DNA of 64,000 nucleotides from Acidobacteriota bacterium (GCA_046727855.1 JBKPDL010000025.1:15697-79696); one strand, 5' to 3'; positions 27,388 to 41,600 are shown, counted from the first letter of the stretch. The notes: a model not told the origin generated them from the sequence alone. Program-made: numbers and translations.

Positions 27388-27696
27388 ATGAAGCAGACAT
27401 TGATACGCTACCAAACCAAGTCGAATCAATCAGAAGAGAACCAGCGGCTTATCGAGCGCGTGTTCGAAGAATTGCGCGCGAAGGCGCCAGCGGGCGTCCG
27501 CTACCTGACCCTGCGGCTCGACGATCAGTCGTTCGTGCATTTTGTGGAGGTGGACACTCCGGATGGCAGCAACCCCCTCCCCGAACTGGAAGCGTTTCGG
27601 GCGTTCCAGCGCGGTATTCGAGACAGGTGCGTCGAGCCGCCCCACTCAAGTAAGGCCACCATCTTGGGCAACTATCGGATGCTCAGAGAGGGGTGA
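27388..27696 (+). CDS. Small ABM/Dabb-like (ferredoxin-fold) protein
   Basis: 102 aa; MKQTLIRYQTK...RYLTLRLDDQSFVHFVEVD...LEAFRAFQ. The upstream part of ORF 27082.. is only translated repeat. Confidence 0.6.
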   Translation: MKQTLIRYQTKSNQSEENQRLIERVFEELRAKAPAGVRYLTLRLDDQSFVHFVEVDTPDGSNPLPELEAFRAFQRGIRDRCVEPPHSSKATILGNYRMLREG

Positions 27697-28628
27697 GATC
27701 TGCGGGAAACCACGAGGGGACTCTGATCATGAGTGAGGGAACTCCAGGCGGCGAGGACGCCAGAGAATCGTTTCATCGCCTTCTGGTTGAATTGCGTCCT
27801 CGGCTGCATCGTTACTCCGCCCGCGTGACGGGCTCGGTGATCGACGGCGAGGACGTTGTCCAGGAAGCGCTCGTGAAGGCGATCGAGGCCTTCGAGGGGG
27901 CTCGCCCGATCGCCAACCCCGAGGCTTGGCTCTTTCGAATCGCGCACAACACCGCGCTCGACTTTCTGCGGCGCCGCACGCGCCACGCGGCATCGAACTC
28001 CAGCCAGGATGTGGAAACGATGGCAGACACGGTGAATACCAACCGCGATCCGCAGATCACCGCCACGAGTCTCGGGACCTTCATGCGGCTGCCCGTCGCC
28101 CAGCGGAGCAGTGTCATCTTGATGGATGTGCTCGGGTACTCCCTTCGGGAGATCAGCAGCATCATGGACATGACCATCCCAGCCGTGAAGGCGGCCCTGC
28201 ATCGCGGTCGCGCGCGTTTGCGCCAATTTGGGGACCAGCCGGTGGAGCGTCCATTCCCCGTGTTGTCAACCCGACACCGCTCGTTGCTGGCCGCCTATGT
28301 GGACCGTTTCAACGAGCGAGACTTCGACGCGATACGTGAGATGCTCGCGGATGAAGTGCGGCTGGACCTCGTGGCCCGCACCCGAATGAACGGACGGACA
28401 GAGGTGGGGACCTATCTGCACAACTACGCGCAGACGGATGATTGGAAATTTGCCCTCGGCGCGGTCGAGGGCAGGCCGGCGGTCCTCGTGCACGATCCGC
28501 GGAACGGGTCGCCAGTGCCAGCGTACTTTGTGGTCTTGGAGTGGGATGGTGACAAGCTGCTCAGCATTCGCGATTTTCGCTACGCCCGCTATGTGATCGA
28601 CGGCGCAGAATTCACCACGCTGGTCTAG
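27693..28628 (+). CDS. ECF sigma factor with C-terminal SnoaL/NTF2-like extension (ECF41/SigJ-like)
   Basis: Sigma-2 (DGEDVVQEALVKAIE...WLFRIAHNTALDFLRRR), sigma-4 (YSLREISSIMDMTIPAVKAALHRGRARL) and a ~110 aa extension. GTG start overlaps the ABM stop (GTGA); the alternative ATG is at 27729. Confidence 0.85.
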   Translation: MRSAGNHEGTLIMSEGTPGGEDARESFHRLLVELRPRLHRYSARVTGSVIDGEDVVQEALVKAIEAFEGARPIANPEAWLFRIAHNTALDFLRRRTRHAASNSSQDVETMADTVNTNRDPQITATSLGTFMRLPVAQRSSVILMDVLGYSLREISSIMDMTIPAVKAALHRGRARLRQFGDQPVERPFPVLSTRHRSLLAAYVDRFNERDFDAIREMLADEVRLDLVARTRMNGRTEVGTYLHNYAQTDDWKFALGAVEGRPAVLVHDPRNGSPVPAYFVVLEWDGDKLLSIRDFRYARYVIDGAEFTTLV

Positions 28629-31872: not shown

Positions 31873-32559
31873 TCACGGTTGACGGTTGATGCGCGCAACG
31901 ACGCACGCGAGCGACGGCGGCATGACGAGGTCGAGGGCGTCAGATGATTTCTTAATCAAATGCTCGATCGGGTGAGTCGCACGCATCAGACCGAACGGCG
32001 CATGATCGGCCGACTCGAACAGGAAATGCCCCAGTTCGTGTGCCACGGCCCGCCCGAGCGCGCGTCCCATCAGCCGGTCGCGCAGGGCCGCCGGGCGATC
32101 GGACAGCGCCTTGTCGCTCACACGCACGCCTTCCAGAAGACGCAGTACCTCGACTAGATAGACGTTGACCAATGGTATTGGCTTGCCGTCGACAAATAGA
32201 ATCGACGCCATTCGGCGCTCCCGCGACGACGCGAACGCGGCCTCGTCATGGACCGTATCGCGCGTGACAATGACACGAACCTGAACGCGTTGCGGCGTTG
32301 GCGCGCTGCTCGCCCACTCCACGTTCGCACCTACTGCACGCCACGGATGAACGGCTTCGTGCATCATTTCCTCGCGTGCCTGTCGTGTGAGGCCGCCGTG
32401 GTCCACCAGGTGCAACGTGACTGGCGTTATCGCGGTGCGCACGCTGTCGGCGCACTCTTCACGCGCTGTACCACGCGCCGACGAAGATGCCGCTGCCGCC
32501 GCGATGTCCACCAGCGTCAGTACGACCGCCGCGATCGCCGCTGACTGACTCGTATTCAT
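31873..32559 (-). CDS. Putative secreted HExxH zinc metallopeptidase-like protein
   Basis: Signal-like N-terminus MNTSQSAAIAAVVLTLVDIAAAAA. The single motif GRAVAHELGHFLFESADH is the only recognisable feature. Confidence 0.55.
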   Translation of the reverse strand: MNTSQSAAIAAVVLTLVDIAAAAASSSARGTAREECADSVRTAITPVTLHLVDHGGLTRQAREEMMHEAVHPWRAVGANVEWASSAPTPQRVQVRVIVTRDTVHDEAAFASSRERRMASILFVDGKPIPLVNVYLVEVLRLLEGVRVSDKALSDRPAALRDRLMGRALGRAVAHELGHFLFESADHAPFGLMRATHPIEHLIKKSSDALDLVMPPSLACVVARINRQP

Positions 32560-32562
32560 GAG

Positions 32563-32718
32563 TCAGCCCTTCCTCGGCACCGTCGCCGAAGCATGAGCTT
32601 CCTTCAGCTTCTGTGCGCAGTCATCGCAGCAAACCTCGACAGTCTTTCCGCCGATCGTGACCTTGATCGAATTCGCATCCAGCTCGCAGTCGCAGGCCGC
32701 GCAAGGGTTCTCACTCAT
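32563..32718 (-). CDS. 51-aa TRASH/YHS-like Cys-rich metal-binding protein
   Basis: Below the 60-aa track cutoff. My translation is MSENPCAACDCELDANSIKVTIGGKTVEVCCDDCAQKLKEAHASATVPRKG, giving C-x2-C-x20-C-x3-C. GGAGGA lies 5 nt before the ATG, and the stop is 3 nt before the next gene's start. Confidence 0.55.
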   Translation of the reverse strand: MSENPCAACDCELDANSIKVTIGGKTVEVCCDDCAQKLKEAHASATVPRKG

Positions 32719-33155: not shown

Positions 33156-33257
33156 TTAGCGCCGGAGAGCCGCCTGCCTGAACTCCGAACGAGAGCGGCC
33201 GTACGCCTGGCGGAATGCCGTGCTGAAGTGGCTATGGCTGTAGAAGCCACAGCTGCT
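33156..33257 (-). pseudogene. C-terminal stump (~34 codons) of an AraC-family regulator
   Basis: Minus frame reads LSSCGFYSHSHFSTAFRQAYGRSRSEFRQAALRR*, the end of the second AraC HTH. There is no upstream AraC sequence; it abuts the stop of gene 33256..33828. Confidence 0.55.
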
Positions 33258-33828
33258 AAGGCGCGACCCTGACGTCGTACGTTTTGCTGAACGTCGTGTC
33301 GTCGTTGTCCTTGAACGCCAGCGTCACGGGCACAAGGGCTTCCCGGCGCAGACTTGGCAGGTCGTACCACACCTCGAACGCGATCGTGATCGTCTGATTG
33401 ACGGTGCCATAGCGATTTGCGCTTGCCGCCGTGACATAGGTGTAATACTCGAGTTCCCCGCCTGTCGGCGGCGTGACGATGCCGCCCGAGGCCTGCTTGA
33501 CTTGCAACGTCACGCTTGTGATGTCGACAGGGAACTCCAATGCATCCTTGTCGTCGGCCTTGCCGTTGAGCGTAACCGCGAGCGAAAAACCTGTCTTCCA
33601 GTCGTAGGTAAGAATGTCATCCGGCTGATTGTTCCCACGAACCACGCGGTACGTCTTTCCGTCGGTCGACTCGTGTGCGATCGCGGGATTCGGCGTCACG
33701 GATATTTCCAGAAAATCATCGACATCCAATGTATCGTCTGGGTCCGTGGGGGACTGGCACGCGCCGGCAAAGAAAACACACCCGACTGCAACGACTATCA
33801 ACACGCCATGTCTCGCTCGCTTCATCAT
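33256..33828 (-). CDS. Small secreted protein / possible lipoprotein, unknown family
   Basis: MMKRARHGVLIVVAVGCVFFAGAC signal with a non-canonical lipobox, then a beta-rich ~165 aa. Immediately downstream of BamA. Confidence 0.65.
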   Translation of the reverse strand: MMKRARHGVLIVVAVGCVFFAGACQSPTDPDDTLDVDDFLEISVTPNPAIAHESTDGKTYRVVRGNNQPDDILTYDWKTGFSLAVTLNGKADDKDALEFPVDITSVTLQVKQASGGIVTPPTGGELEYYTYVTAASANRYGTVNQTITIAFEVWYDLPSLRREALVPVTLAFKDNDDTTFSKTYDVRVAP

Positions 33829-33838
33829 CGTCTCCTGA

Positions 33839-36262
33839 TCAGAAGGTCGTGCCGACGGCAAACCGGAACCCGCGCGGCGGCTGGAACGAGTCGCGGTAGA
33901 TGTTCCACGCGTAAATCAGCCGGAACGGAACATTGATCATCGGCAGCGTGACCCGCAGCTCGACACCGGTCGATGTCCGTAACTGTCGAAGATCGATTGG
34001 CTGGTTCTCGCTGTACGCCTGACCGGCATCATGGAAGGCAAGGGCGCGAACCTGCGGGAAGATGTCGTAGTAATACTCGGCGTTGAAGAGCACGAACTTG
34101 GTGCCGCCGGTGGCGACGCCGTTGGCGTTGGTCGGACCGACGGTTCGCACGTCGACGCCGCGAATTTGCGTTTCGCCGCCGAGAAAATAGCGCTGGTAGT
34201 AGGGGAGCTCGCCGCCGCCGTAGTTCCAGATGCGTCCCGCATTGGCGCGCAAGCCGAGCGCGGTCCGGCGCGAGACAGGAAAGTACATCACCGCTTCGAG
34301 CTCTGGTTTGATGAAACGATTCGTGCCGCCCAGCCATCCACCGGCGTATTGATACTTCGCGGTCAACCGCTTGCCGCTGCGCGGCGCAAATGGGTTGTCG
34401 ATCGTGTTGTGCACGATCGACGGCGTGATGCTGCTCTCGGTGAAACGGCCTTCATCGAGCAGGAACGCGTTGCTGTTCGAGCCCGTTTGCAGCGCTTTCT
34501 GCAGGTCGTCAGTCATTGCCGTTTCGATGACTTCGTAGCCATAGGTTGCGAAGATGCGCGTGAACCGTCGAATCGGAAAGCCCGAAGTGAGATTGAAGCC
34601 GCTGCGGACCTCGCTGTAATCCGTGGTGTTGCTGTTCACCGCGTACTCGAGCTTGCGCGAGTACACGCTCGACCCGGCTGTGATCGCGCGCCCGAACAGA
34701 AATGGTTCGGTGAACGCCAGCTGATAGGTTCGCGAACGCGTCCCGGTCTGGACTGCAACCGTCAGGCTTTCGCCTTTGCCGAGAAAATTGGCCGTGGTGT
34801 ACGAGAAATTGATGAACAACCCTTCGTACTGCGACGCCCCAGCCCCGAAGTTGAGCTGATTCCTGTTCTGCTCCTCCACCTTGATGCCGACGTCGACTTT
34901 GGCGTCAGTGCCATCGGCGTGCTTGACGTCGAGCGCGCGCTCGTCGAGCGGCTTGAAGTAGCCAAGCTGGTTGATCCGGCGCAAGCTGTATTTCAACGCT
35001 TCGGTGTTGAACACCCCGCCTTCGACCAGCGCGAGCTCGCGCCGAATGACCTGGTCGCGCGTGTGCGTGTTACCGGTAAAGTGAATGCGGTTGACGAAAT
35101 ACTGTTTCCCTTCGCTGATCTTCAGCACGATATCGACGACCGTGGAGCCGTCGTTACGAGGACGCAGATCAGGAAACGCGGTGAACTCGAAATAGCCGCC
35201 GGCTCCGTAGAGCTCCCGCGCGCGCTCGAGACCTTTGCGGATCCGCTCCTGGATGTACGTCTCACCAGGCTTGAGTTGAAAGAGCGGCTGCAGCGCTTCG
35301 CCTTTGAGCACCGTATTGCCTTCGAACGTGAAGTCGCCGACGGTGTAGCGGGAACCCTCGGCGACCTCGACCCGCAATTGCACCCATCGCGTTTTGCCGT
35401 CGCGGGAGTCATCCAGCGGCCTCAGCTGCGGCTGGCCGACCCGTGCGGTGATGTAGCCGTGGTCGTGGTAATGATCGATGACGTTCTGCGCGTCATCGCC
35501 AAACTTCTGCGCGTTGTACGCCCCCCGACGAGTCACGAGCGACAGAATGTTTTCTGGCTTGTTGCTTTTCAGGACCTTGGTCAGCTCGGCGTCGCTGAAA
35601 ACGCGGTTGCCGACGAATTCCACGTCGCGAATTGCGATCTTCGGTCCTTCAGATATCGTGAACGTGACGTGTGCCAGCTTCGACCCGCCCGGCAGCTCGC
35701 GTACTGAAGGCTTCACCTCCGCGTCCGGAAAGCCTTTTTCCGCGTAGAGCTCACGCACGATTCCGGCCACGCGGCGCAGCACACTGAAATCGAGGAACGA
35801 ATCGAGACGCAAGTCGATGCCCTTGTCTTTCAGTCGATCGGCAATGTCGGAGCGGGAGACCTTCGTTGCACCGTCGTAGTCGACGATCTTGATGCGCTGC
35901 CGTTCTTCCAGATGAAAGACGATGATCTTGCCGAGCGTGCCATTGCTGAACGGGTAGTCGTGTACTTCGATGGAAAGATCGTCGAGAAAGTTGGTCGCCC
36001 ACAGCCGGCGGAAGTCGGACACCACCAGGCGTTCCGTTTCGTCCGTGTAGAAGACCCACTGGTCACGCGACGGTTCGCTCGGTTTCAATTGGATGTAATA
36101 GAGATATGTTTGCGGCTCGATCGCCGAGGTGCCGCCTTGCTTGTCGAAGCAGAGCAGCATCGCCAGTACGACCGGTTTTGAGCCCGGTAGCGGCTCCTTT
36201 GCCGGAGCGGGTACGGTCATCCCACAAATCGTGGCGGCGGTCAGCAAGGTGGCGGCGAACAT
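33839..36262 (-). CDS. bamA: BamA/Omp85-family outer membrane protein assembly factor (POTRA repeats plus Omp85 barrel)
   Basis: 807 aa. POTRA-like repeats (IAIRDVEFVGNRVFSDAELTKVL, VNRIHFTGNTHTRDQVIRRELAL), barrel motifs (YFLGGETQIRG, FHDAGQAY) and C-terminal ...RFAVGTTF. Confidence 0.9.
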   Translation of the reverse strand: MFAATLLTAATICGMTVPAPAKEPLPGSKPVVLAMLLCFDKQGGTSAIEPQTYLYYIQLKPSEPSRDQWVFYTDETERLVVSDFRRLWATNFLDDLSIEVHDYPFSNGTLGKIIVFHLEERQRIKIVDYDGATKVSRSDIADRLKDKGIDLRLDSFLDFSVLRRVAGIVRELYAEKGFPDAEVKPSVRELPGGSKLAHVTFTISEGPKIAIRDVEFVGNRVFSDAELTKVLKSNKPENILSLVTRRGAYNAQKFGDDAQNVIDHYHDHGYITARVGQPQLRPLDDSRDGKTRWVQLRVEVAEGSRYTVGDFTFEGNTVLKGEALQPLFQLKPGETYIQERIRKGLERARELYGAGGYFEFTAFPDLRPRNDGSTVVDIVLKISEGKQYFVNRIHFTGNTHTRDQVIRRELALVEGGVFNTEALKYSLRRINQLGYFKPLDERALDVKHADGTDAKVDVGIKVEEQNRNQLNFGAGASQYEGLFINFSYTTANFLGKGESLTVAVQTGTRSRTYQLAFTEPFLFGRAITAGSSVYSRKLEYAVNSNTTDYSEVRSGFNLTSGFPIRRFTRIFATYGYEVIETAMTDDLQKALQTGSNSNAFLLDEGRFTESSITPSIVHNTIDNPFAPRSGKRLTAKYQYAGGWLGGTNRFIKPELEAVMYFPVSRRTALGLRANAGRIWNYGGGELPYYQRYFLGGETQIRGVDVRTVGPTNANGVATGGTKFVLFNAEYYYDIFPQVRALAFHDAGQAYSENQPIDLRQLRTSTGVELRVTLPMINVPFRLIYAWNIYRDSFQPPRGFRFAVGTTF

Positions 36263-37182
36263 CAGAACTTGATCCGGACGCCGAGCTCGCCCACAAGTCG
36301 CGTTTGCTGCTCATCATCCGCGCCGCGAGTCAGCCGCCACCCATAGCCGCCTTCGACAAAGACGCCGACACGCGAAGAGATCGCCGCCTGCAGCCCGCCC
36401 TTCCCGAGCACAGTTCCTGCATCGCGCTCGGCACGGTCAGTCAGTTGCGCGCGATACTCGCCGCCGGCGTAAATGCTCGCCATCGCGTGCGGTGTGAAGT
36501 AGTACGCAAGCCCTCCGTGCGCCTGCAACGAGGGCGCACCGGGTCCGGTTGCGGACGTGTCATCGTCTTGGTCATCGCCAAAGCTCGATGAGCCGATGAG
36601 ACCGCCTCTGATGGCAAACCTGTCGCTCACGAAGTGCGTGATGTCGACATGTAGCGTCACTTGCCAGGGGAACACGTCCTGGCTCGAAGTGAACTTGTCG
36701 ATCGAGCCAGACAGCCCAATCGACGTGACACCAGTCCCGCCGACGGCGCGCGGCTCGATGTCCTCTGTTTGGCCGTTCAAAAAGGGGTCTGACCCCTTTT
36801 CCGACCCCTTTTCCGACTGCACACCTTGCTCGGCGAGCGCCGGGGTCGCGGTGATAGCGAATGCCATCAGGACGAGGCGCAACAGATAGCCGATGTTTCG
36901 CACCGTCACGATGAGCGCGCGATGGCACCCCAGCTTTTTGCGAAGATGGCTGACGTGGACGTCGACCACGCGGTCGAGCGGGTGGAACGCGCGACCGAAT
37001 ACGGCGGTCATCAAGGTCTCGCGCGACACGACGCGCCCCGCGTGCTGCAGCAGGCACGCCAGGATTTCGTACTCCGTCGTGGTGAGATCGAGCGCGCGCT
37101 GGTTGACCGACAAACGTCTTGCCGCTGGCTCCAATACGATCGAGCAGCTTGAGCAATCGAGCTCGCGTTCCACAGGGGACAC
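36262..37182 (-). CDS. Orphan OmpR/PhoB-type winged-helix DNA-binding domain fused in frame to a TM/signal segment and an OM beta-barrel-like domain
   Basis: N-terminal ~100 aa are Trans_reg_C-like (LTTTEYEILACLLQHAGRVVSRETL...VDVHVSHLRKKL...VRNIGYLLR). Then LVLMAFAITATPALA and ~200 aa of amphipathic strands ending GELGVRIKF. The stop overlaps the bamA ATG (TGATG). Confidence 0.6.
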   Translation of the reverse strand: MSPVERELDCSSCSIVLEPAARRLSVNQRALDLTTTEYEILACLLQHAGRVVSRETLMTAVFGRAFHPLDRVVDVHVSHLRKKLGCHRALIVTVRNIGYLLRLVLMAFAITATPALAEQGVQSEKGSEKGSDPFLNGQTEDIEPRAVGGTGVTSIGLSGSIDKFTSSQDVFPWQVTLHVDITHFVSDRFAIRGGLIGSSSFGDDQDDDTSATGPGAPSLQAHGGLAYYFTPHAMASIYAGGEYRAQLTDRAERDAGTVLGKGGLQAAISSRVGVFVEGGYGWRLTRGADDEQQTRLVGELGVRIKF

Positions 37183-37242
37183 GCCTCCGTGCCGGTGAGC
37201 GTCGATGAGACGCCACCGGGGCTTTCAGGCGGGCCGGCATTG

Positions 37243-37286
37243 GTGATTGACGACGGATCGCCGCGCGTTTGTTAAGAATTGTTAAG
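37243..37286 (-). promoter_or_regulatory. Conserved upstream block (direct repeat CTTAACAA x2, then CGAT..CAATCAC) before the wHTH-barrel/bamA unit
   Basis: Minus strand: CTTAACAATTCTTAACAAACGCGCGGCGATCCGTCGTCAATCAC. Related to the blocks at 39316-39368 and 41239-41290. Confidence 0.35.
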
Positions 37287-38160
37287 CGCCGTCTGGACGC
37301 ACGCGCATCATCGCGCCGGGACGCATGTCTTCGATGCGGAAGTCGGCGGGAATCTTGAAGAGATCGGGCGACGGTTCGGTTCGCTGAATGTTGGTGAGGC
37401 GGTAAATGGTTTCACCAAATCTCGGGTCGAAGCGCCGCGTCATCACCACCACTTGCAGCTCCGGCGAATACCATCGCTCGATCACAATCTCAATTGCTTG
37501 CACGTTGCCGATGGCACCGGCCGGAATCGTCGTCGTCCGGCGCGTGCCTTCGACTTTCACACCCTCGAGAATTTTCGGCTCCAGTGTTTCCTCGACGGCC
37601 GATCCTGCGGGCATCACCGATGCCATCGACTGTGCTGCGATCACACTCGGCATGCCGCCACCGCTGACCGTCCCAGCCATCGGCGGCGGCGGAATGGACA
37701 CCTCGAAGGTTGGTTCCGTCGGTTCGGCGATCTTGTACTCGAGCATCGGAGCCTTGAACGGCTTCGCGCGGAACGCGACCTTGAGGTCGTAGTTCAGCGT
37801 GATGTGAACACCGCTTTCGGGATCGGTGATGGTCACGATGGGCTGTTGGTTTTTTGCGACGAACGTGCCCACCGCGATGCCCTGCTGTTCGCGGCGCGTG
37901 CGGCCCTGACTGTCGCGCGCCACGGTTGCCGACGTGCGCTGCTCGATCCGATTGCCGTCGGCGAGCACCTGCGTCATTTCGGTAACGGCGTCGGCTGTAT
38001 ACGGCGCATCCCGAACGACGCGTCCGACGTTGATCGGGTCCAGCGCGACGATGCCGATTTCCGGGGGGACTGGCGCGACCTGCGGCAGCACGTCCTGTGC
38101 CTCAGCCGATGTCACAGTCCAACCCAAAAGAATAGATGCCACTACGATGCGTTCGATCAT
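37282..38160 (-). CDS. Secreted protein of unknown family (third gene of the ECF sigma unit)
   Basis: Start at MIERIVVASILLGWTVTSAEA (signal peptide) with AGGAG upstream. The 175 Arg-rich codons upstream in the ORF track overlap the previous gene and are rejected. Confidence 0.6.
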   Translation of the reverse strand: MIERIVVASILLGWTVTSAEAQDVLPQVAPVPPEIGIVALDPINVGRVVRDAPYTADAVTEMTQVLADGNRIEQRTSATVARDSQGRTRREQQGIAVGTFVAKNQQPIVTITDPESGVHITLNYDLKVAFRAKPFKAPMLEYKIAEPTEPTFEVSIPPPPMAGTVSGGGMPSVIAAQSMASVMPAGSAVEETLEPKILEGVKVEGTRRTTTIPAGAIGNVQAIEIVIERWYSPELQVVVMTRRFDPRFGETIYRLTNIQRTEPSPDLFKIPADFRIEDMRPGAMMRVRPDGA

Positions 38161-38165
38161 GATCG

Positions 38166-38702
38166 CTACTCCTGTCCGGCTCGCACGTGAGAAAGATCGC
38201 GCGGCAGGCCGTCTTCGCCCACGAGCACATCCACGTCCACAACCCCTTCGGCGTCGGGCTCGAGCAGCACGAGGCCAAGCGTTTCGAGCGCTGCGCGTGG
38301 AATGCGAATGCGGACAACCTGCAATGCTTCGGGAAACTCCAGCGTGATGGTGGCAATCGTCGTGTCGCGGCTCCGCGACGAGGAATGCGGACGAACTGCG
38401 GCGATGACCGGTCTGTCCTGTCCGACGGCGAGCTTGAACGCGGCGGGTAGCGAGTGACTCGCCAGAGGGCGCGACGGCAACTTTGCCGATGGCGGCGCAT
38501 CGCCCGGCCGCCATGCCAAAAAGGCGAACACGAGCGTGGCCGCGGCTGCTACTAAACCTAGCTTGACTAGTACTATCTGCCGCTGTGACTTCGCGGCACG
38601 CGGTGTGCCTAGCGCGTGCAGTACGCGCGCTTCGAGCACCGCAGGTGCCTTGATCCGGATATCGTCCTGCTCGAACGCGCGCCACGCTGCGTCAAAGTTC
38701 AT
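38166..38702 (-). CDS. Single-pass membrane protein, putative anti-sigma factor
   Basis: MNFDAAWRAFEQDD..., one TM (IVLVKLGLVAAAATLVFAFLAW) and a ~100-aa extracytoplasmic part. The start overlaps the sigma gene stop by 11 nt. No zinc anti-sigma motif. Confidence 0.5.
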   Translation of the reverse strand: MNFDAAWRAFEQDDIRIKAPAVLEARVLHALGTPRAAKSQRQIVLVKLGLVAAAATLVFAFLAWRPGDAPPSAKLPSRPLASHSLPAAFKLAVGQDRPVIAAVRPHSSSRSRDTTIATITLEFPEALQVVRIRIPRAALETLGLVLLEPDAEGVVDVDVLVGEDGLPRDLSHVRAGQE

Positions 38703-39309
38703 ACAGCGCCCCCTTCTCGACGGTTGGGCGACGGAGCTCCGGTCGTGCGACACGCGCGAGGCGCTGCCGAAGCAACTGGCGCGCGCGATGAAGACGCGAT
38801 CGCACTGTCGAAATCGAAATGCGGGTTACCACTGCGGCGTCGGCATAGCTGAATCCATGCAGGTCGCACAGAAGAATGAGCTCGCGATAGCGAGGTGGAA
38901 GTTTCTGAAGCGCGCGTCGGACCTGGGATGCGAGCTCGATACCTGCGAGCGCGTCGGACGGATCATCGACGTAAGTAGTGTGCGCGCTGAAGGGGCTGAT
39001 GACGTCGAGTGAAAAGAATCGGCGCTCCTTGCGGAGCCGTTCGCGGCTCAGGTTGCGGACGATGCCATAGAGGTAGGTCGTGAACGTCGCGCGATCGGGA
39101 TCGTATTTCGCCAGATCGCGGAAGACGGCGACAAACACTTCCTGTGAAATGTCCTCGGCCGCCGCCGGACAGCCCATCATGGCCCGAGCAAATCGGTACA
39201 CGACGTGCTGATAGCGACGGAACACTTCCGTGAAGGCGTCGAGATCGCCGGATGCAGCGAGTTGCACCAGCTCGCCGTCGGAATCGAGCACTTCTACTTC
39301 GGACGCCAT
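38692..39309 (-). CDS. ECF (group IV) RNA polymerase sigma factor
   Basis: Sigma-2 (FTEVFRRYQHVVYRFARAMMG...AEDISQEVFVAVFRDL...TYLYGIVRNLSRERL) and sigma-4 (PPRYRELILLCDLHGFSYADAAVVTRISISTVRSRLHRAR). Confidence 0.9.
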   Translation of the reverse strand: MASEVEVLDSDGELVQLAASGDLDAFTEVFRRYQHVVYRFARAMMGCPAAAEDISQEVFVAVFRDLAKYDPDRATFTTYLYGIVRNLSRERLRKERRFFSLDVISPFSAHTTYVDDPSDALAGIELASQVRRALQKLPPRYRELILLCDLHGFSYADAAVVTRISISTVRSRLHRARQLLRQRLARVARPELRRPTVEKGALYEL

Positions 39310-39315
39310 TCAACG

Positions 39316-39368
39316 GTGATTGGCCGGAGCATCGAAATCGTTCCGGCGAGTTTGTAAAGGTTGTTAAA
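39316..39368 (-). promoter_or_regulatory. Conserved promoter-like block upstream of the ECF sigma gene
   Basis: Minus strand: TTTAACAACCTTTACAAACTCGCCGGAACGATTTCG-N10-CAATCAC. The 30-nt core is 26/30 identical to 41256-41285, with the same N10 spacing to CAATCAC. Confidence 0.45.
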
Positions 39369-39371
39369 TCT

Positions 39372-41210
39372 TCAGGGCCGATCCACGCTGGACTCGACGG
39401 GTTCAGCAAGCCGGGTCTCCGCTTTCATCCGCGAGTCGGTCGCGGCGGACAGAAACTGATCCCACGCCACGCGAATGCGATCCAGCTTCTCGATCGCGCT
39501 CCGCTCCCCCGTCCGACCATTGGAAACGACGTAGACAAACGCCTGCCGGTACACCCGCGGGCTGTCGGCAGCCGACGGCACGCGTGGGCCAACGACGGCA
39601 ATCACATCTTCGATGCGCACGTCACGCCGGATTCCACTGAAGGTCACGCCGACTTCGGGCTCGGATGCCGCAGTGCGAGGCTCCCTCAGATTCGTCGGAC
39701 TCTGCACGTAGAAAAAGGGTGGGACCTGCGTCTGATCGACGAGTCCCATCGCGTACTGATCGAGCAGGCTGTAGTGTTGCACGGCGGCTACCGTGCGAAA
39801 CGATCCGCTGCCCAGGTCTTCGATGTCGTTGCCTTCGAGCACGGATGCGTCGGAATCGAAAAAGAAGCTCCAGTGCGCGGCATCGCGGCCGAGGAGCGCT
39901 CGCGACACGCGTCCCATGTGATCGCGAAAATACAGGAACGCCAGCCATCGGTGCCCGATCTCCTGTCCCATCACGCTGAGCGTCGAATTCTCACCGAGGA
40001 ACACCTCGCGCGGCTCATCGGGATACTTCGACAGCGCATCCATGTTGCACAAACTTTGCAGCGGCCCGGCGCTGCCGTATTCCGCCGAATAATCGAATAC
40101 CGGCAAGTTGAGACCTTGAATCTGATTGGCGACCGAAATTTCATACGCAAACGCATTAGTGAGCAACTTTTGGTCGGTGAAAATGACGATGTTGTCGAAC
40201 GCGTCGCGATGTGTAGCAAGGAAGCGGCGTGCGACAGCGACGGTGTCGAGATCGGACTGCGAGGTGAAGCGTTCGCCGAGCGCTGAGGAGCCTGCCGCAA
40301 TCGATTCCTGGGCAGTGAAGTCCACCGGCAGAAATTGCGTCGTATTTCCAGGAGAAACGCCTACCACCGCTTCGCGAATCGTCGTCCGATTCGAGAATTG
40401 AATATCGATCGGGCCGGTCTGGTGGAGTGTCACTTGAACCGTCGCGGTCTCGCGCGTGCCGTATTCCCGAACGTTGCACCACGTCACAGTCAGTGCGCGG
40501 TCATCGGCAAACGACCAGATCTGTCCGCCGGCCGACGGATTCAGATCGGCGAAGAGCGGCGCCACGCGTGGCGCACCTGTCAAGAGCCGCGAAACGGATC
40601 GAGCCGAGGTCGCGACATCACCCTCGCCGAACGTCAAGTTGCCGTCGGAGTTCACAAACACGTGGTCGTGCGGCTGACCAAAAAACGAAAACGTAAATGG
40701 CAACGCAACGCGGCGAACATCGTCGTCGTCCATCGTGAGACCTGTGCCGAGCGTACGCCTGAATTCGTACGCGATCCGTGACACGTCATAGCCGCCGCTG
40801 TCGTTGGGCGTCAGCCGCAGACCAACATTGCGCAAGTCGAACGGATTCGGCGCCATGACGAGATCGCCGCGATCCTGCAGAACGGCGATCTCACCGACAT
40901 CCTCCGTCAAACGGGTGTCGGCAGTCTTCATCGACAGCCGACCCTGTGCAACGGCTGCTCGGTGGTTCCACACGCTATCGAGGTGGCTCCATCGGTCATC
41001 GTGGTCGAGGGGAGAGGTCTTCGCCGGGTTTTCTGGCGCGCGCTGAGAAGTGCCGCGTGCGCTCGGATCCACGGCACTTGACGCTGTTGCGCATGGGTCG
41101 GTCGATTGCGCACGCACGGGCGTATGAAGGTCAGTCCGAAAAACAATTGCCGCGACCGCGCTCAGCATGGCCGCTCGGATATAAATCGGTGGTGTCATCG
41201 TCAACAGCAT
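39372..41210 (-). CDS. Large secreted protein of unknown function (degenerate QEIGH metalloprotease-like motif)
   Basis: About 612 aa from MLLTMTPPIYIRAAMLSAVAAIVF (signal). Contains FSFFGQPHDHVFVNSDGNLTFG and MGQEIGHRW. I recognise no family with confidence. Confidence 0.65.
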   Translation of the reverse strand: MLLTMTPPIYIRAAMLSAVAAIVFRTDLHTPVRAQSTDPCATASSAVDPSARGTSQRAPENPAKTSPLDHDDRWSHLDSVWNHRAAVAQGRLSMKTADTRLTEDVGEIAVLQDRGDLVMAPNPFDLRNVGLRLTPNDSGGYDVSRIAYEFRRTLGTGLTMDDDDVRRVALPFTFSFFGQPHDHVFVNSDGNLTFGEGDVATSARSVSRLLTGAPRVAPLFADLNPSAGGQIWSFADDRALTVTWCNVREYGTRETATVQVTLHQTGPIDIQFSNRTTIREAVVGVSPGNTTQFLPVDFTAQESIAAGSSALGERFTSQSDLDTVAVARRFLATHRDAFDNIVIFTDQKLLTNAFAYEISVANQIQGLNLPVFDYSAEYGSAGPLQSLCNMDALSKYPDEPREVFLGENSTLSVMGQEIGHRWLAFLYFRDHMGRVSRALLGRDAAHWSFFFDSDASVLEGNDIEDLGSGSFRTVAAVQHYSLLDQYAMGLVDQTQVPPFFYVQSPTNLREPRTAASEPEVGVTFSGIRRDVRIEDVIAVVGPRVPSAADSPRVYRQAFVYVVSNGRTGERSAIEKLDRIRVAWDQFLSAATDSRMKAETRLAEPVESSVDRP

Positions 41211-41238
41211 TGGCAGGCGCTGACGACGCGGTGCAATC

Positions 41239-41290
41239 GTGATTGATGCGAATGGCGAAATCGTTGCGGAAAGATTGTAAAGGTTCCTTC
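41239..41290 (-). promoter_or_regulatory. Conserved promoter-like block upstream of the large secreted protein gene
   Basis: Minus strand: GAAGGAACCTTTACAATCTTTCCGCAACGATTTCG-N10-CAATCAC. Confidence 0.45.
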
Positions 41291-41369
41291 GAACATTGAC
41301 AGGCCGCATCGCCGTCCCACGCGACCGCACTGCTAGGCCGGCGCACGCAACTCTGCACGCGGCGCAACC

Positions 41370-41600
41370 ACGTACGTTCCTCACGTGGGTTCCTTACGCA
41401 GGTTCCTTACGTAGGTTCACGAGGGTTCCGAACGTGGGTTCTTCGCGGAGTTCACGTGGCGTTCGAACTTCCGGAAGGAACTTCCGCAAGGACTCCCGTA
41501 ACGAATCCCGTGAACGTCCGTAAGGAACGTCCGTCAGGAACCCCGTGAACCTACGTAAGGAACCCATTTGAGGAACCTACGTTAGGAACACCCCGTGGGT
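41370..41600. repeat. Palindromic array of about 19 thirteen-nt GGAAC-core units (about 9 in one orientation, 10 in the other)
   Basis: GTTCC/GTTCA units start at 41376, 41389, 41402, 41415, 41425, 41438, 41450, 41461. The centre is GTTCGAAC + TTCCGGAA (41461-41476). GGAAC/TGAAC units start at 41477, 41490, 41502, 41511, 41524, 41537, 41546, 41559, 41572, 41585. Perfect 21-bp IR at 41401-41421 / 41544-41564. Confidence 0.9.

What the first reader, a model, noticed from the sequence alone, without database searches (positions are those of the whole stretch)
33256..41290. ECF sigma / membrane protein / secreted protein module physically linked to a BamA gene, a wHTH-barrel fusion and unknown secreted proteins
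Seven co-oriented minus-strand genes form this block. They are a ~612-aa secreted protein (39372..41210), an ECF sigma (38692..39309) and a single-TM protein whose start overlaps the sigma stop by 11 nt (38166..38702). A signal-peptide protein follows 5 nt downstream (37282..38160). Then come the wHTH-barrel ORF (36262..37182), BamA (33839..36262, its ATG overlapping the previous stop as TGATG) and a small secreted protein (33256..33828). The sigma / single-pass protein / periplasmic protein order mirrors rpoE-rseA-rseB, and in E. coli sigmaE drives bamA expression. Here a sensor-like module and an Omp85 gene sit together with four proteins I cannot place in any family. The bamA neighbours known from proteobacteria (rseP, skp, lpxD) are absent. 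This could be a dedicated outer-membrane biogenesis or envelope-stress island built around a specialised Omp85.
Basis: partly seen in the sequence, partly recalled or inferred. Interest (0 to 1): 0.7.

Follow-up and report, generated by a model that had tools for sequence, protein, structure and literature searches.

The report
Stress sigma module wired to BamA operon
A soil acidobacterium carries an alternative sigma factor, its membrane partner and a LolA-like periplasmic protein directly upstream of a BamA outer-membrane assembly operon that has the sigma gene's own promoter motif, and in this lineage the operon's DNA-binding regulator is fused in frame to the signal peptide of an outer-membrane barrel protein.

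Summary
In detail: seven co-oriented minus-strand genes lie at the stated coordinates.

The block is a composite of two modules that are each conserved on their own.

- **Module A** is the ECF sigma, a single-pass protein and a periplasmic protein. It is present in nearly all 80 Acidobacteriota loci examined. The periplasmic protein models as a LolA-superfamily fold, as does the N-domain of RseB. Longer relatives of the single-pass protein carry an HxxxCxxC zinc anti-sigma motif.
- **Module B** is a receiver-less OmpR-type wHTH, an 8-stranded barrel, BamA and a conserved lipoprotein. It occurs both with and without module A.

The two modules share a promoter motif, AAC-N17-CAATCA. It occurs 4 times in the window against 0.28 expected. 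Three of the four sites lie upstream of the 612-aa gene, the sigma gene and the wHTH gene. Relatives carry it before the sigma, wHTH and barrel genes. This predicts sigma-driven bamA expression, analogous to sigmaE.

BamA looks canonical rather than specialised: it passes the TIGR03303 cut-off and is not TamB-linked. Whether the genome has a second copy could not be tested.

The oddest feature is real. The wHTH is fused in frame to the barrel's signal peptide in seven protein clusters, and the fusion arose at least twice.

Verdict: new variant of a known kind, moderately interesting.

The parts
41240..41265 (-). P1: sigma-type promoter motif AAC-N17-CAATCA upstream of the 612-aa gene
   Evidence: 4 matches in the window against 0.28 expected. 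The same motif lies before the g7 homologue in L002, and before the divergently oriented g7 in L003.
39372..41210 (-). g7: secreted 612-aa protein with a NIDO-like segment and a conserved (Q/H)ExxH...H zincin-like motif. The window copy reads QEIGH.
   Evidence: The family has 7472 cluster representatives at E<=1e-3. Relatives hit NIDO, TIG and FlgD_ig. E417, H420 and H446 are invariant. No PDB relative by sequence.
39317..39342 (-). P2: the sigma gene's own promoter motif. The ATG at 39309 lies 7 nt after CAATCA, so the mRNA is predicted to be leaderless.
   Evidence: The motif sits at the equivalent position upstream of the sigma gene in 19 Vicinamibacterales-like loci.
38692..39309 (-). ECF (group 4) sigma factor, 205 aa
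   Evidence: Pfam Sigma70_r2 and Sigma70_r4_2; TIGR02937 scores 101.5 bits against a cut-off of 42.9.
38166..38702 (-). g5: single-pass membrane protein, the inferred anti-sigma factor. It has a short cytoplasmic N-terminus lacking the ZAS motif and a conserved periplasmic C-terminal domain of about 50 aa.
   Evidence: It lies next to the sigma and g4 genes in 46 related loci. 22 of the 47 aligned members have HxxxCxxC. All share the C-terminal block ...VRV.LPR.AL..G...ADVLVGEDG.... No Pfam hit.
37282..38160 (-). g4: periplasmic LolA-superfamily-fold protein, 292 aa, with a signal peptide and a disordered central insert
   Evidence: AF2 ordered segments have pLDDT 84-94. Foldseek against PDB: LolA 2.7e-8, RseB 2v42 1.2e-4. 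More than 7500 homologues and no Pfam or NCBIfam family.
37244..37285 (-). P3: sigma-type motif (37244-37269) overlapped by the direct repeat TTAACAA-N3-TTAACAA (37267-37285), a candidate wHTH binding site
   Evidence: 1 match against 0.06 expected. The same composite element lies before the wHTH gene and before the separate barrel gene in relatives.
36880..37173 (-). g3 residues 1-98: OmpR/PhoB-type winged-helix DNA-binding domain with no receiver domain
   Evidence: Trans_reg_C 84 bits. The model matches the PhoB, RstA, GlnR and CpxR DNA-binding domains at TM 0.7-0.8.
36832..36879 (-). g3 residues 99-114: internal signal-peptide-like segment RLVLMAFAITATPALA ending in an AxA site
   Evidence: It aligns with the N-terminal signal peptides of the unfused barrel proteins. 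It is modelled as a helix.
36262..36831 (-). g3 residues 115-303: 8-stranded outer-membrane beta-barrel ending ...GVRIKF
   Evidence: Eight strands in the AF2 model. Foldseek matches OmpA, Ail, OmpW, NspA and OprF-N. 19 stand-alone homologue clusters exist.
33839..36262 (-). BamA, 807 aa, with POTRA domains and an Omp85 barrel
   Evidence: TIGR03303 483 bits against a cut-off of 297. TamA 104 against 625 and TamL 105 against 400. The best 120 homologues are all at least 59% identical.
33256..33828 (-). g1: conserved lipoprotein, 190 aa, always immediately downstream of this BamA
   Evidence: Lipobox with invariant CQSP. 53-74% identical in 6 loci, both with and without the sigma module. No Pfam or PDB relative.

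Best explanation
The block is a cis-linked envelope-surveillance circuit made of two modules.

**Module A** is an ECF sigma factor held by a single-pass anti-sigma factor (g5). The conserved periplasmic tail of g5 is probably bound by a LolA-fold periplasmic protein (g4). By analogy with RseA/RseB, a hydrophobic envelope signal such as mislocalised lipoprotein, lipid or unfolded OMP would displace g4. That would allow the anti-sigma factor to be removed and free the sigma.

The free sigma then reads promoters of the form AAC-N17-CAATCA. These lie in front of its own leaderless operon, the secreted zincin-like g7 gene, and **module B**. Module B encodes a receiver-less OmpR-type wHTH regulator, a small 8-stranded OMP, BamA and a BamA-associated lipoprotein. 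The wHTH probably binds the TTAACAA direct repeats that overlap the -35 region of the module-B promoters.

**Shown here:** gene content, folds, conservation of each module, and the position and conservation of the shared motif.

**Inferred:** sigma/anti-sigma binding, g4-g5 binding, the nature of the signal, use of the motif by this sigma, and wHTH binding to the repeats.
For: - The trio is conserved in nearly all 80 genome loci.
- g4 has a LolA-like fold, with the RseB N-domain among the matches.
- The g5 family carries a ZAS motif in 22 of 47 members and a universally conserved periplasmic C-terminal block.
- The motif occurs 4 times in the window against 0.28 expected. Three of the four are intergenic and correctly oriented, before g7, the sigma gene and the wHTH gene.
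- The motif lies directly upstream of the sigma gene in 19 related loci, with the ATG 7-9 nt after it.
- More distant relatives keep GGAAC-N-AAT(A/T) at the same place.
- The same motif lies before the wHTH gene and again before the separate barrel gene in L006, L007 and L088, and before the barrel gene in L010.
- No terminator-like site lies between g4 and g3.
- barrel-BamA-lipoprotein is a fixed cassette.
- TTAACAA repeats with a 10-bp period occur only at the wHTH and barrel promoters. TAAC-type repeats persist upstream of module B even where the sigma module is absent.
- It is established that sigmaE controls the bam genes in E. coli. An envelope-stress system controlling a bamA paralogue is reported in PMC13059784.
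Against: - There are no expression or binding data.
- The window-type g5 has lost the ZAS-bearing half of the anti-sigma domain. How it would hold the sigma is unclear.
- Pfam zf-HC2 does not reach significance even in the long homologues.
- g4 and g5 have no sequence similarity to RseB or RseA.
- Module B exists without the sigma module and without the strict motif in L084-L086.
- The closest relative, L002, keeps the sigma module and the wHTH but has no barrel-BamA-lipoprotein cassette at that locus. The coupling is therefore lineage-specific and dispensable in cis.
Confidence: 0.6

Rival explanations
1. The BamA is a specialised paralogue. Together with its small barrel and its lipoprotein, it forms a dedicated assembly system that is switched on only under stress. 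A separate housekeeping bamA lies elsewhere.
For: - The closest relative, L002, lacks the cassette at this locus.
- The cassette has its own invariable partners, the barrel and the lipoprotein.
- Acidobacteria are reported to carry a second BamA (PMC4494059).
- Stress-induced BamK is a precedent.
- The loop-6 motif reads IRGV rather than the usual VRGF/Y (the usual form is from my own knowledge).
Against: - The protein scores 483 bits on the BamA equivalog model against a cut-off of 297, and falls far below the TamA and TamL cut-offs.
- The duplicated acidobacterial BamA described in PMC4494059 is TamB-linked and has extra POTRA domains. This one is neither.
- The 120 best homologues are all at least 59% identical, a level I would expect of an order-wide orthologue.
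- No second Omp85 was seen in the 64-kb window.
Confidence: 0.3
2. The two modules are merely adjacent. The shared sequence is not the sigma's promoter but the site of another regulator, such as the wHTH itself, or a conserved 5' element.
For: - The modules occur separately.
- TTAACAA or TAAC repeats accompany module B regardless of whether the sigma module is present.
- The motif was defined by eye before it was counted.
Against: - The AAC-N17-CAATCA part, without TTAACAA repeats, lies before sigma genes in loci where no wHTH was found near the sigma trio, such as L013-L016 and L020.
- It has the AAC -35 and 17-nt spacing typical of ECF promoters.
- It sits at a fixed 7-9 nt from the sigma ATG.
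- The adjacency recurs in at least six diverged lineages.
Confidence: 0.12
3. The wHTH-barrel fusion is a decaying gene or an assembly or annotation artefact. Only the barrel, made from an internal start, is functional.
For: - The window has an in-frame TTG just before the hydrophobic segment.
- L087 keeps the barrel's original ATG in frame.
- The wHTH exists as a separate gene in many relatives.
Against: - The fusion is present in seven protein clusters from independent assemblies at 55-99% identity.
- The wHTH halves remain 41-74% identical, with a strong Pfam score.
- L003 has no in-frame ATG, GTG or TTG near the junction.
- No Shine-Dalgarno-like sequence precedes the window's TTG.
- The fusion arose at least twice.
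Confidence: 0.1

Closest known systems
RpoE-RseA-RseB (E. coli) / AlgU-MucA-MucB (Pseudomonas) envelope stress system
   Same: - Same gene order: ECF sigma, single-pass membrane protein, periplasmic protein.
- The periplasmic protein has the LolA-like fold found in the RseB N-domain.
- The sigma gene has an autoregulatory-type promoter.
- The predicted regulon includes bamA, as the sigmaE regulon does (established knowledge).
   Different: - No sequence-level relationship to RseA or RseB.
- g4 is a single LolA-like domain with a roughly 50-residue disordered insert. It lacks the RseB C-terminal domain.
- The anti-sigma family is ZAS-type in its long form and N-terminally truncated here.
- There is no rseC.
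- bamA is wired in cis, downstream of the sensor genes.
ToxR/CadC-type membrane-bound OmpR-family wHTH regulators
   Same: g3 has the same order of parts: an N-terminal cytoplasmic OmpR-type wHTH with no receiver, one hydrophobic segment, and an extracytoplasmic C-terminal part.
   Different: - The hydrophobic segment is a former cleavable signal peptide with a conserved AxA site.
- The C-terminal part is a complete 8-stranded OMP with a C-terminal Phe, not a periplasmic sensor domain.
- In most fused versions the linker is only about 10 residues, too short to span the periplasm.
BaeSR-controlled bamK, the BamA paralogue of Klebsiella pneumoniae (PMC13059784)
   Same: An envelope-stress signalling system involving an OmpR-family DNA-binding protein controls an Omp85 foldase gene.
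   Different: - Here the main regulator is predicted to be an ECF sigma, and the OmpR-type protein has no receiver domain.
- The Omp85 looks canonical rather than a paralogue.
- Nothing has been tested experimentally.
Pho-box type class II activation by PhoB (OmpR family)
   Same: Two 7-bp direct repeats at roughly a helical turn's spacing overlap the -35 region of the promoter (TTAACAA-N3-TTAACAA). The pho-box comparison comes from established knowledge.
   Different: - The period is 10 bp rather than 11 bp.
- The partner sigma would be an ECF sigma.
- Binding is purely inferred.

Membership tests
ECF (group 4) sigma-70 family | Regions 2 and 4 only; score above the family cut-off | tested here: met
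   Sigma70_r2 72.6 bits and Sigma70_r4_2 69.7 bits. TIGR02937 scores 101.5 against a cut-off of 42.9.
RpoE equivalog (TIGR02939) | Score above the curated cut-off | tested here: not met
   83.5 bits against a cut-off of 236.
BamA (TIGR03303 OM_YaeT) | Full-length match above the equivalog cut-off; POTRA repeats plus an Omp85 barrel | tested here: met
   483.4 bits against a cut-off of 297. Omp85 covers 1-325 of 325 model positions. Four POTRA stretches pass on their own.
TamA / TamL | Score above the curated cut-off; TamB neighbour | tested here: not met
   TamA 104 against 625 and TamL 105 against 400. The immediate neighbours of BamA in the window and in relatives are the small barrel and the lipoprotein, not a TamB-sized gene.
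Housekeeping (sole canonical) BamA of the genome | No other five-POTRA BamA in the same genome | not testable with these tools
RseB/MucB family | Sequence match to MucB_RseB N- and C-terminal domains | tested here: not met
   No Pfam or NCBIfam hit at E<=0.1. The profile found no RseB in PDB sequences. Similarity is at fold level only, to 2v42 at E 1.2e-4.
LolA superfamily (fold) | Unclosed beta-barrel fold | tested here: met
   The top 30 or so Foldseek hits are LolA or ependymin-related proteins, with E down to 2.7e-8, probability 1.0 and target-normalised TM 0.44-0.54. Model confidence is good only in the two ordered halves.
RseA family anti-sigma | Sequence match to RseA_N or RseA_C | tested here: not met
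   No Pfam or NCBIfam hit for g5.
Zinc-binding anti-sigma (ZAS, zf-HC2) | HxxxCxxC motif in an N-terminal anti-sigma domain | tested here: not met
   The window g5 lacks the motif and the first 45 or so residues of the domain. 22 of 47 family members have the motif, but Pfam zf-HC2 is not significant even for them.
Anti-sigma factor (functional class) | Binds and inhibits the cognate sigma | not testable with these tools
   Only co-occurrence with overlapping genes in 46 loci and the ZAS motif in relatives.
OmpR/PhoB-type wHTH DNA-binding domain | Trans_reg_C above cut-off; wHTH fold | tested here: met
   84.1 bits against a cut-off of 26.2. Matches the PhoB, RstA, GlnR and CpxR DNA-binding domains at rmsd 1.2-2.9 A.
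Two-component response regulator | Receiver domain (Response_reg) | tested here: not met
   There is no receiver domain. The NCBIfam alignments begin at about position 135 of the response-regulator models. The stand-alone orthologues are 83-128 aa.
ToxR-like membrane-bound transcription factor | wHTH, then a stable transmembrane helix, then a periplasmic sensor domain | tested here: inconclusive
   The domain order fits. However, the hydrophobic segment is about 15 residues, ends in a conserved AxA site and is homologous to cleavable signal peptides. Whether it is cleaved is untested.
8-stranded OMP barrel (OmpA-TM / OmpX-Ail / OmpW / NspA class) | Eight antiparallel strands, a signal peptide and a C-terminal aromatic beta-signal | tested here: met
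   Eight strands in the model. Foldseek matches OmpA, Ail, OmpW, NspA and OprF-N. The C-terminus ...R(I/V)(K/R)F is invariant. Pfam OMP_b-brl reaches only E 0.016, below its cut-off.

The most novel reading that the evidence does not exclude
The wHTH-signal peptide-OMP fusion is a working device that couples export of an outer-membrane protein to activation of a transcription factor. In this reading:

1. The internal signal sequence targets the nascent fusion to Sec.
2. Signal peptidase cuts at the conserved AxA site and releases the barrel for BamA-dependent assembly.
3. The wHTH is left tethered to the inner membrane by the signal-peptide remnant.
4. The wHTH acts there, or is released by a signal-peptide or site-2 protease, to bind the TTAACAA repeats of its own operon.

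One regulator molecule would be produced for each exported OMP substrate of the adjacent BamA. I know of no described precedent. One full-text literature search with the terms 'winged helix', 'signal peptide', 'beta-barrel', 'fusion' and 'membrane-bound transcription' found none.
Probability: 0.2. Interest if true: 0.85.

Novelty: new variant of a known kind. Interest (0 to 1): 0.6.

Why it matters
If the prediction holds, this is an independently evolved counterpart of the sigmaE pathway. It is non-homologous at sequence level, and in it the sensor genes and the BAM genes are physically wired together, in a phylum where envelope biology is almost unstudied.

It assigns a working role to four things:
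- a very large unannotated protein family, the LolA-fold partner of an ECF sigma (more than 7500 homologues, no Pfam entry);
- an anti-sigma family with a naturally truncated form;
- a candidate new BAM lipoprotein;
- a conserved small OMP that always precedes bamA.

The recurrent in-frame fusion of a cytoplasmic DNA-binding domain to a cleavable signal peptide is topologically unusual. It could reveal a new way of coupling protein export to gene regulation.

Tried and rejected
- An exact-sequence look-up of the window's BamA in the contig index found nothing. The cluster-member look-up gave no accessions or organism names.
- Sequence searches against PDB were uninformative: the g4 profile (only spurious uS11 hits), the g1 profile (none) and g7 (none).
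- Pfam and NCBIfam gave nothing for g1, g4 or g5.
- I expected Pfam zf-HC2 to hit the long g5 homologues. It did not, so the ZAS assignment rests on the motif count alone.
- The strict promoter motif was not found upstream of module B in the sigma-less loci L084-L086. A conserved sigma-to-bamA link in trans therefore could not be shown.
- The generic sigma-70 promoter and terminator scan found fewer sites than the shuffled controls and was not informative.
- The ECF classification paper (PMC7826278) does not mention LolA or BamA in its main text, and none of its passages on Acidobacteria or outer-membrane proteins describes this gene context. A search for wHTH / signal-peptide / barrel fusions found nothing relevant.
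- I considered that g3 might be a response-regulator pseudogene with a receiver domain lost by frameshift. I rejected this. There is no room upstream (100 nt to g4), and the orthologues are intact stand-alone wHTH genes of 83-128 aa.
- I considered g1 as a Skp equivalent because of its position after bamA. I rejected this. It is a lipoprotein, its sequence did not look like a coiled-coil chaperone on inspection, and Pfam gave no Skp/OmpH hit.
Full report
**1. What is in the sequence**

- The sigma stop and the g5 start overlap by 11 nt.
- g4 follows g5 after 5 nt.
- The g3 stop and the BamA start share one base.
- g1 follows BamA after 10 nt.
- Downstream of g1 there is about 520 nt without a convincing gene.

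Pfam and NCBIfam give three firm assignments:
- an ECF sigma (TIGR02937, 101.5 bits against a cut-off of 42.9);
- a BamA (TIGR03303, 483 against 297; far below the TamA and TamL cut-offs);
- an OmpR-type Trans_reg_C domain at the N-terminus of g3.

g7, g5, g4 and g1 have no significant family. None of the ten flanking ORFs scanned hits a Skp, LpxD or RseP family. They include a TPR protein, a methyltransferase, AraC- and DJ-1-type proteins and a second ECF sigma with a SnoaL domain.

The start of g3 is more likely the GTG at 37173. It has GGAGG 10 nt upstream, gives 303 aa, and is the start JGI called for the identical metagenome gene.

**2. The block is two modules**

g4 has more than 7500 homologues. 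I fetched 80 genome loci encoding relatives. All but three are labelled Acidobacteriota or one of its subgroups; those three are labelled Gammaproteobacteria MAGs. I then searched their ORFs with the seven window proteins.

Module A, sigma-g5-g4, is present in that order in essentially every locus long enough to show it.

The downstream genes are found next to module A in only a subset: L003/L005, L006, L007, L010 and, from a later look-up, L088.

The closest relative is L002, with g4 78% identical. It has g7-sigma-g5-g4 and a 102-aa stand-alone wHTH, but no barrel, BamA or g1 at that place.

Conversely, look-ups of BamA homologues at about 62% identity found module B without any sigma module:
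- wHTH(83-98 aa)-barrel(186)-BamA(822)-lipoprotein(184) in L084 and L085;
- barrel(206)-BamA(806)-lipoprotein(188) in L086.

So barrel-BamA-lipoprotein is a fixed cassette, usually preceded by a receiver-less wHTH. In one clade it sits directly behind the sigma trio. In the top-120 lists for g4 and BamA, at least 18 entries share the same longest-contig length, so the linked arrangement appears common in metagenomes.

**3. Module A looks like a sigma / anti-sigma / RseB-like sensor**

The AlphaFold model of g4, built from a 23-sequence alignment, has two well-predicted beta-rich halves (block means of pLDDT 84-94). They are separated by a disordered insert of about 50 residues.

Foldseek against the PDB gives LolA from several species as the best matches (E 2.7e-8). 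Next come ependymin-related proteins, LprG and VioE. RseB (2v42) ranks 48th at E 1.2e-4. This places g4 in the LolA superfamily, whose members typically bind lipids and other hydrophobic ligands (my own knowledge), and to which the RseB N-domain belongs. There is no sequence-level relationship.

I extracted 46 g5 homologues that lie between a sigma gene and a g4 gene and aligned them with the window's g5, 47 sequences in all.
- 22 have an N-terminal HxxxCxxC motif about 30 residues after a Cys at position 3-7, and roughly 90 cytoplasmic residues. This is the pattern of zinc-binding anti-sigma domains.
- The other 25, including the window's, lack that first half. They keep only a helix-like segment (...AWRAF..DD....AP..LE.RVL...) before the membrane span.
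- All 47 share a C-terminal periplasmic block of about 50 residues (...VRV.LPR.AL..G.....ADVLVGEDG..R.IR...).

Pfam zf-HC2 does not reach significance for the long forms. The anti-sigma assignment is therefore an inference from the motif, the position and the overlapping reading frames.

**4. A shared promoter motif links the modules**

The intergenic regions upstream of g7, the sigma gene and g3 share the pattern AAC-N17-CAATCA.
- In the 64-kb window it occurs four times against 0.28 expected. No shuffle out of 100 reached four. Three of the four sites are those intergenic sites, on the coding strand.
- In 19 Vicinamibacterales-like loci the motif lies immediately upstream of the sigma gene. 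In the loci tabulated the ATG follows 7-9 nt after CAATCA, which predicts a leaderless sigma mRNA.
- More distant loci keep GGAAC(T/C)TT...N...(C/G/T)AAT(A/T) at the same place. That is what an autoregulated ECF promoter drifting with its sigma should look like.

The same motif lies before the wHTH gene in L002, L003, L006, L007, L087 and L088. Where wHTH and barrel are separate genes it appears a second time immediately before the barrel gene (L006, L007, L088) and before the barrel in L010. There the barrel ATG again follows 7-8 nt after the motif.

This is the strongest in-silico evidence available that the sigma drives g3-bamA-g1. It is not proof.

In the sigma-less module-B loci the strict motif is absent.

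**5. A second element marks the module-B promoters**

The promoters before the wHTH and barrel genes carry a direct repeat that the other sigma-type promoters mostly lack. In the window it reads TTAACAA-TTC-TTAACAA. The consensus is CTTAACAAnnnTTnACrAAC, with a 10-bp period, and the downstream copy overlaps the -35 AAC.
- A pattern derived from the window's own copy and its relatives has one match in the window at up to two mismatches, against 0.06 expected.
- A looser copy (TTAACAA-CCT-TTACAAA) sits 10 bp further upstream at the sigma promoters of the window and L002. A single TTTACAA sits at the g7 promoter. Both were read off by eye.
- TAAC-type repeats are still present upstream of module B in L084 and L086.

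Direct repeats spaced about one helical turn apart and overlapping a -35 region are how OmpR/PhoB-family domains typically bind (established knowledge). The receiver-less wHTH is the obvious candidate. This is an inference.

The nearest full-length relatives of the wHTH in the protein database are annotated as CpxR by JGI.

**6. The wHTH-barrel fusion is real and recurrent**

The AlphaFold model of g3, built from a 26-sequence alignment (mean pLDDT 79.5), shows three parts:
- a confident wHTH in residues 1-90;
- a helix over the hydrophobic segment, residues 94-115;
- a low-confidence linker followed by eight beta strands, residues 150-302.

Foldseek matches the N-terminal part to the PhoB, RstA, GlnR and CpxR DNA-binding domains. 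It matches the C-terminal part to the OmpA transmembrane domain, Ail, OmpW, NspA and OprF-N.

A database search found seven clusters with the fused architecture (257-303 aa, 55-99% identical to the window's) and 19 clusters of the barrel alone (179-216 aa).

In the alignment, the last strand of the wHTH (...VTVRNIGYL) runs straight into a segment that aligns with the hydrophobic core and AxA site of the stand-alone barrels' signal peptides. The mature part begins Q(T)EDIEPR and ends with an invariant ...R(I/V)(K/R)F, a C-terminal aromatic residue typical of OMPs.

Where the genes are separate, the intergenic space between them holds the barrel's own sigma-type promoter and start codon. The fusion corresponds to loss of that space.

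Two lines of evidence indicate that both halves are maintained:
- the wHTH halves are 41-74% identical among the fused proteins;
- the barrel halves are 64-86% identical.

P0247/L087 has a different junction (...GVGHMLRTSGPVVLALL...). Its barrel is closer to unfused barrels (71-72%) than to the other fused ones (64-69%). The fusion therefore arose at least twice.

L003 has no in-frame ATG, GTG or TTG near the junction. In that lineage the barrel must be made from the fused ORF and exported through an internal signal sequence. The window has an in-frame TTG but no Shine-Dalgarno-like sequence before it.

The most economical reading has four steps:
1. the wHTH stays cytoplasmic;
2. the hydrophobic segment engages Sec;
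3. signal peptidase cuts at AxA;
4. the barrel goes to BamA.

Cleavage is untested. In most fused versions only about 10 residues separate the AxA site from the first strand. An uncleaved protein could not reach the outer membrane.

**7. The other genes**

- **g1** is a lipoprotein with an invariant CQSP after the lipobox. It is 53-74% identical across six loci and always lies directly after this BamA. It has no Pfam or PDB relative. It is a candidate lineage-specific BAM lipoprotein.
- **g7** belongs to a very large family: 7472 cluster representatives at E<=1e-3. Longer members add TIG, FlgD_ig or CHU_C domains and hit the NIDO domain. The conserved core has an invariant E and two invariant H in a (Q/H)ExxH...HW pattern. 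It is therefore probably a secreted zincin-like protein. The window's copy has Q in place of the first His. It carries the sigma-type promoter and is linked to the sigma gene only in the closest relatives, L002 and L003.

**8. Canonical or specialised BamA?**

In favour of a canonical BamA:
- it passes the equivalog cut-off and has the length and POTRA content of a five-POTRA BamA;
- there is no TamB neighbour, whereas the duplicated acidobacterial BamA described by Heinz et al. is TamB-linked and has extra POTRA domains (PMC4494059);
- the 120 best homologues are all at least 59% identical.

In favour of a paralogue:
- the cassette is absent at this locus in the closest relative;
- it has its own dedicated partners;
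- there is the precedent of stress-induced BamK (PMC13059784).

I put the canonical reading at roughly 0.6-0.65.

**9. Comparison and verdict**

Functionally this resembles the sigmaE/RseA/RseB system and its control of the bam genes. It is built from proteins that are non-homologous at sequence level and is wired in cis. That makes it a new variant of a known kind, not a new kind.

Its interpretation is partly supported: the RseB-like idea and the sigma-to-bamA link hold up, while the 'single island around a specialised Omp85' does not.

The element that might be truly new is the recurrent fusion of a cytoplasmic DNA-binding domain to a cleavable signal peptide and an OMP. If it is processed as its sequence suggests, it would couple OMP export stoichiometrically to production of a membrane-tethered or released regulator.

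Noticed in passing
window 41369-41589: Two opposed arrays of a 13-nt tandem unit, GGAACC(Y)NCGTAAG. About 5 copies read on the minus strand towards g7 (41369-41441). About 9 copies read on the plus strand towards the methyltransferase gene at 41595 (41465-41589). Because of the 13-nt period, each GGAAC is followed 16 nt later by CGTAA, a generic ECF-like -35/-10 spacing. The arrays are absent from the seven related loci checked.
   Followed up: partly
window 39309-39342, and the equivalent position in L002-L016, L020, L069, L083, L088: The sigma gene's ATG lies 7-9 nt after the CAATCA element in most of these loci. The sigma mRNA is therefore predicted to be leaderless. The separate barrel genes of L006, L007 and L088 show the same geometry.
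   Followed up: partly
window 37205-37243 (5' leader of g3); same position in L002, L003, L008, L011, L087, L088: Just downstream of the P3 motif there is a conserved leader segment, roughly GCC(G/T)GCC(C)GCCTGA. It was seen by eye in the promoter table and was not analysed.
   Followed up: no
window 27693-28628 (+): A second ECF sigma factor with a C-terminal SnoaL_2 extension, the architecture the ECF classification paper lists for sigmas with a SnoaL-like C-terminal extension (ECF294). It lies about 5 kb from the block and has no adjacent anti-sigma candidate.
   Followed up: no
window 32596-32718 (-), read: A small Cys-rich ORF, MSENPCAACDCELDANSIKVTIGGKTVEVCCDDCAQKLKEAHASATVPRKG, which looks like a zinc ribbon. 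It lies just upstream of the unassigned 228-aa gene at 31873-32559.
   Followed up: no
L011:8847-9480, L012:7090-11338, L008:3602-7423, L065 and L075: The sigma trio is duplicated or rearranged in several relatives. L012 has two tandem trios. L008 has an extra inverted g4 copy with its own motif. L011 has a second sigma gene very close to the window's (8e-84), followed directly by a P3-type promoter and then unrelated glyoxalase-like genes, which looks like the scar of a deletion.
   Followed up: partly
L010:14835-15575, L084:16327-18017, L086:15021-17092: An OmpR-family two-component pair or response regulator lies just downstream of the barrel-BamA-lipoprotein cassette in several loci. L086 also has an HtrA-type protease there. 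The L010 regulator's DNA-binding domain is 42% identical to the window's wHTH, which hints that the receiver-less wHTH derives from such a regulator.
   Followed up: partly
window 39372-41210 (g7), residues 416-420: About half of the aligned g7 relatives have HExxH where the window copy has QEIGH. The Glu and the second and third His are invariant. The window protein may be a catalytically altered member of an uncharacterised secreted zincin-like family.
   Followed up: partly
window 33839-36262 (BamA), sequence ...GGETQIRGVDVRTVGP...: The conserved loop-6 (V/I)RG(F/Y) motif of BamA reads IRGV here. The comparison is with the E. coli motif from memory, and I did not check it across the homologues.
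   Followed up: no
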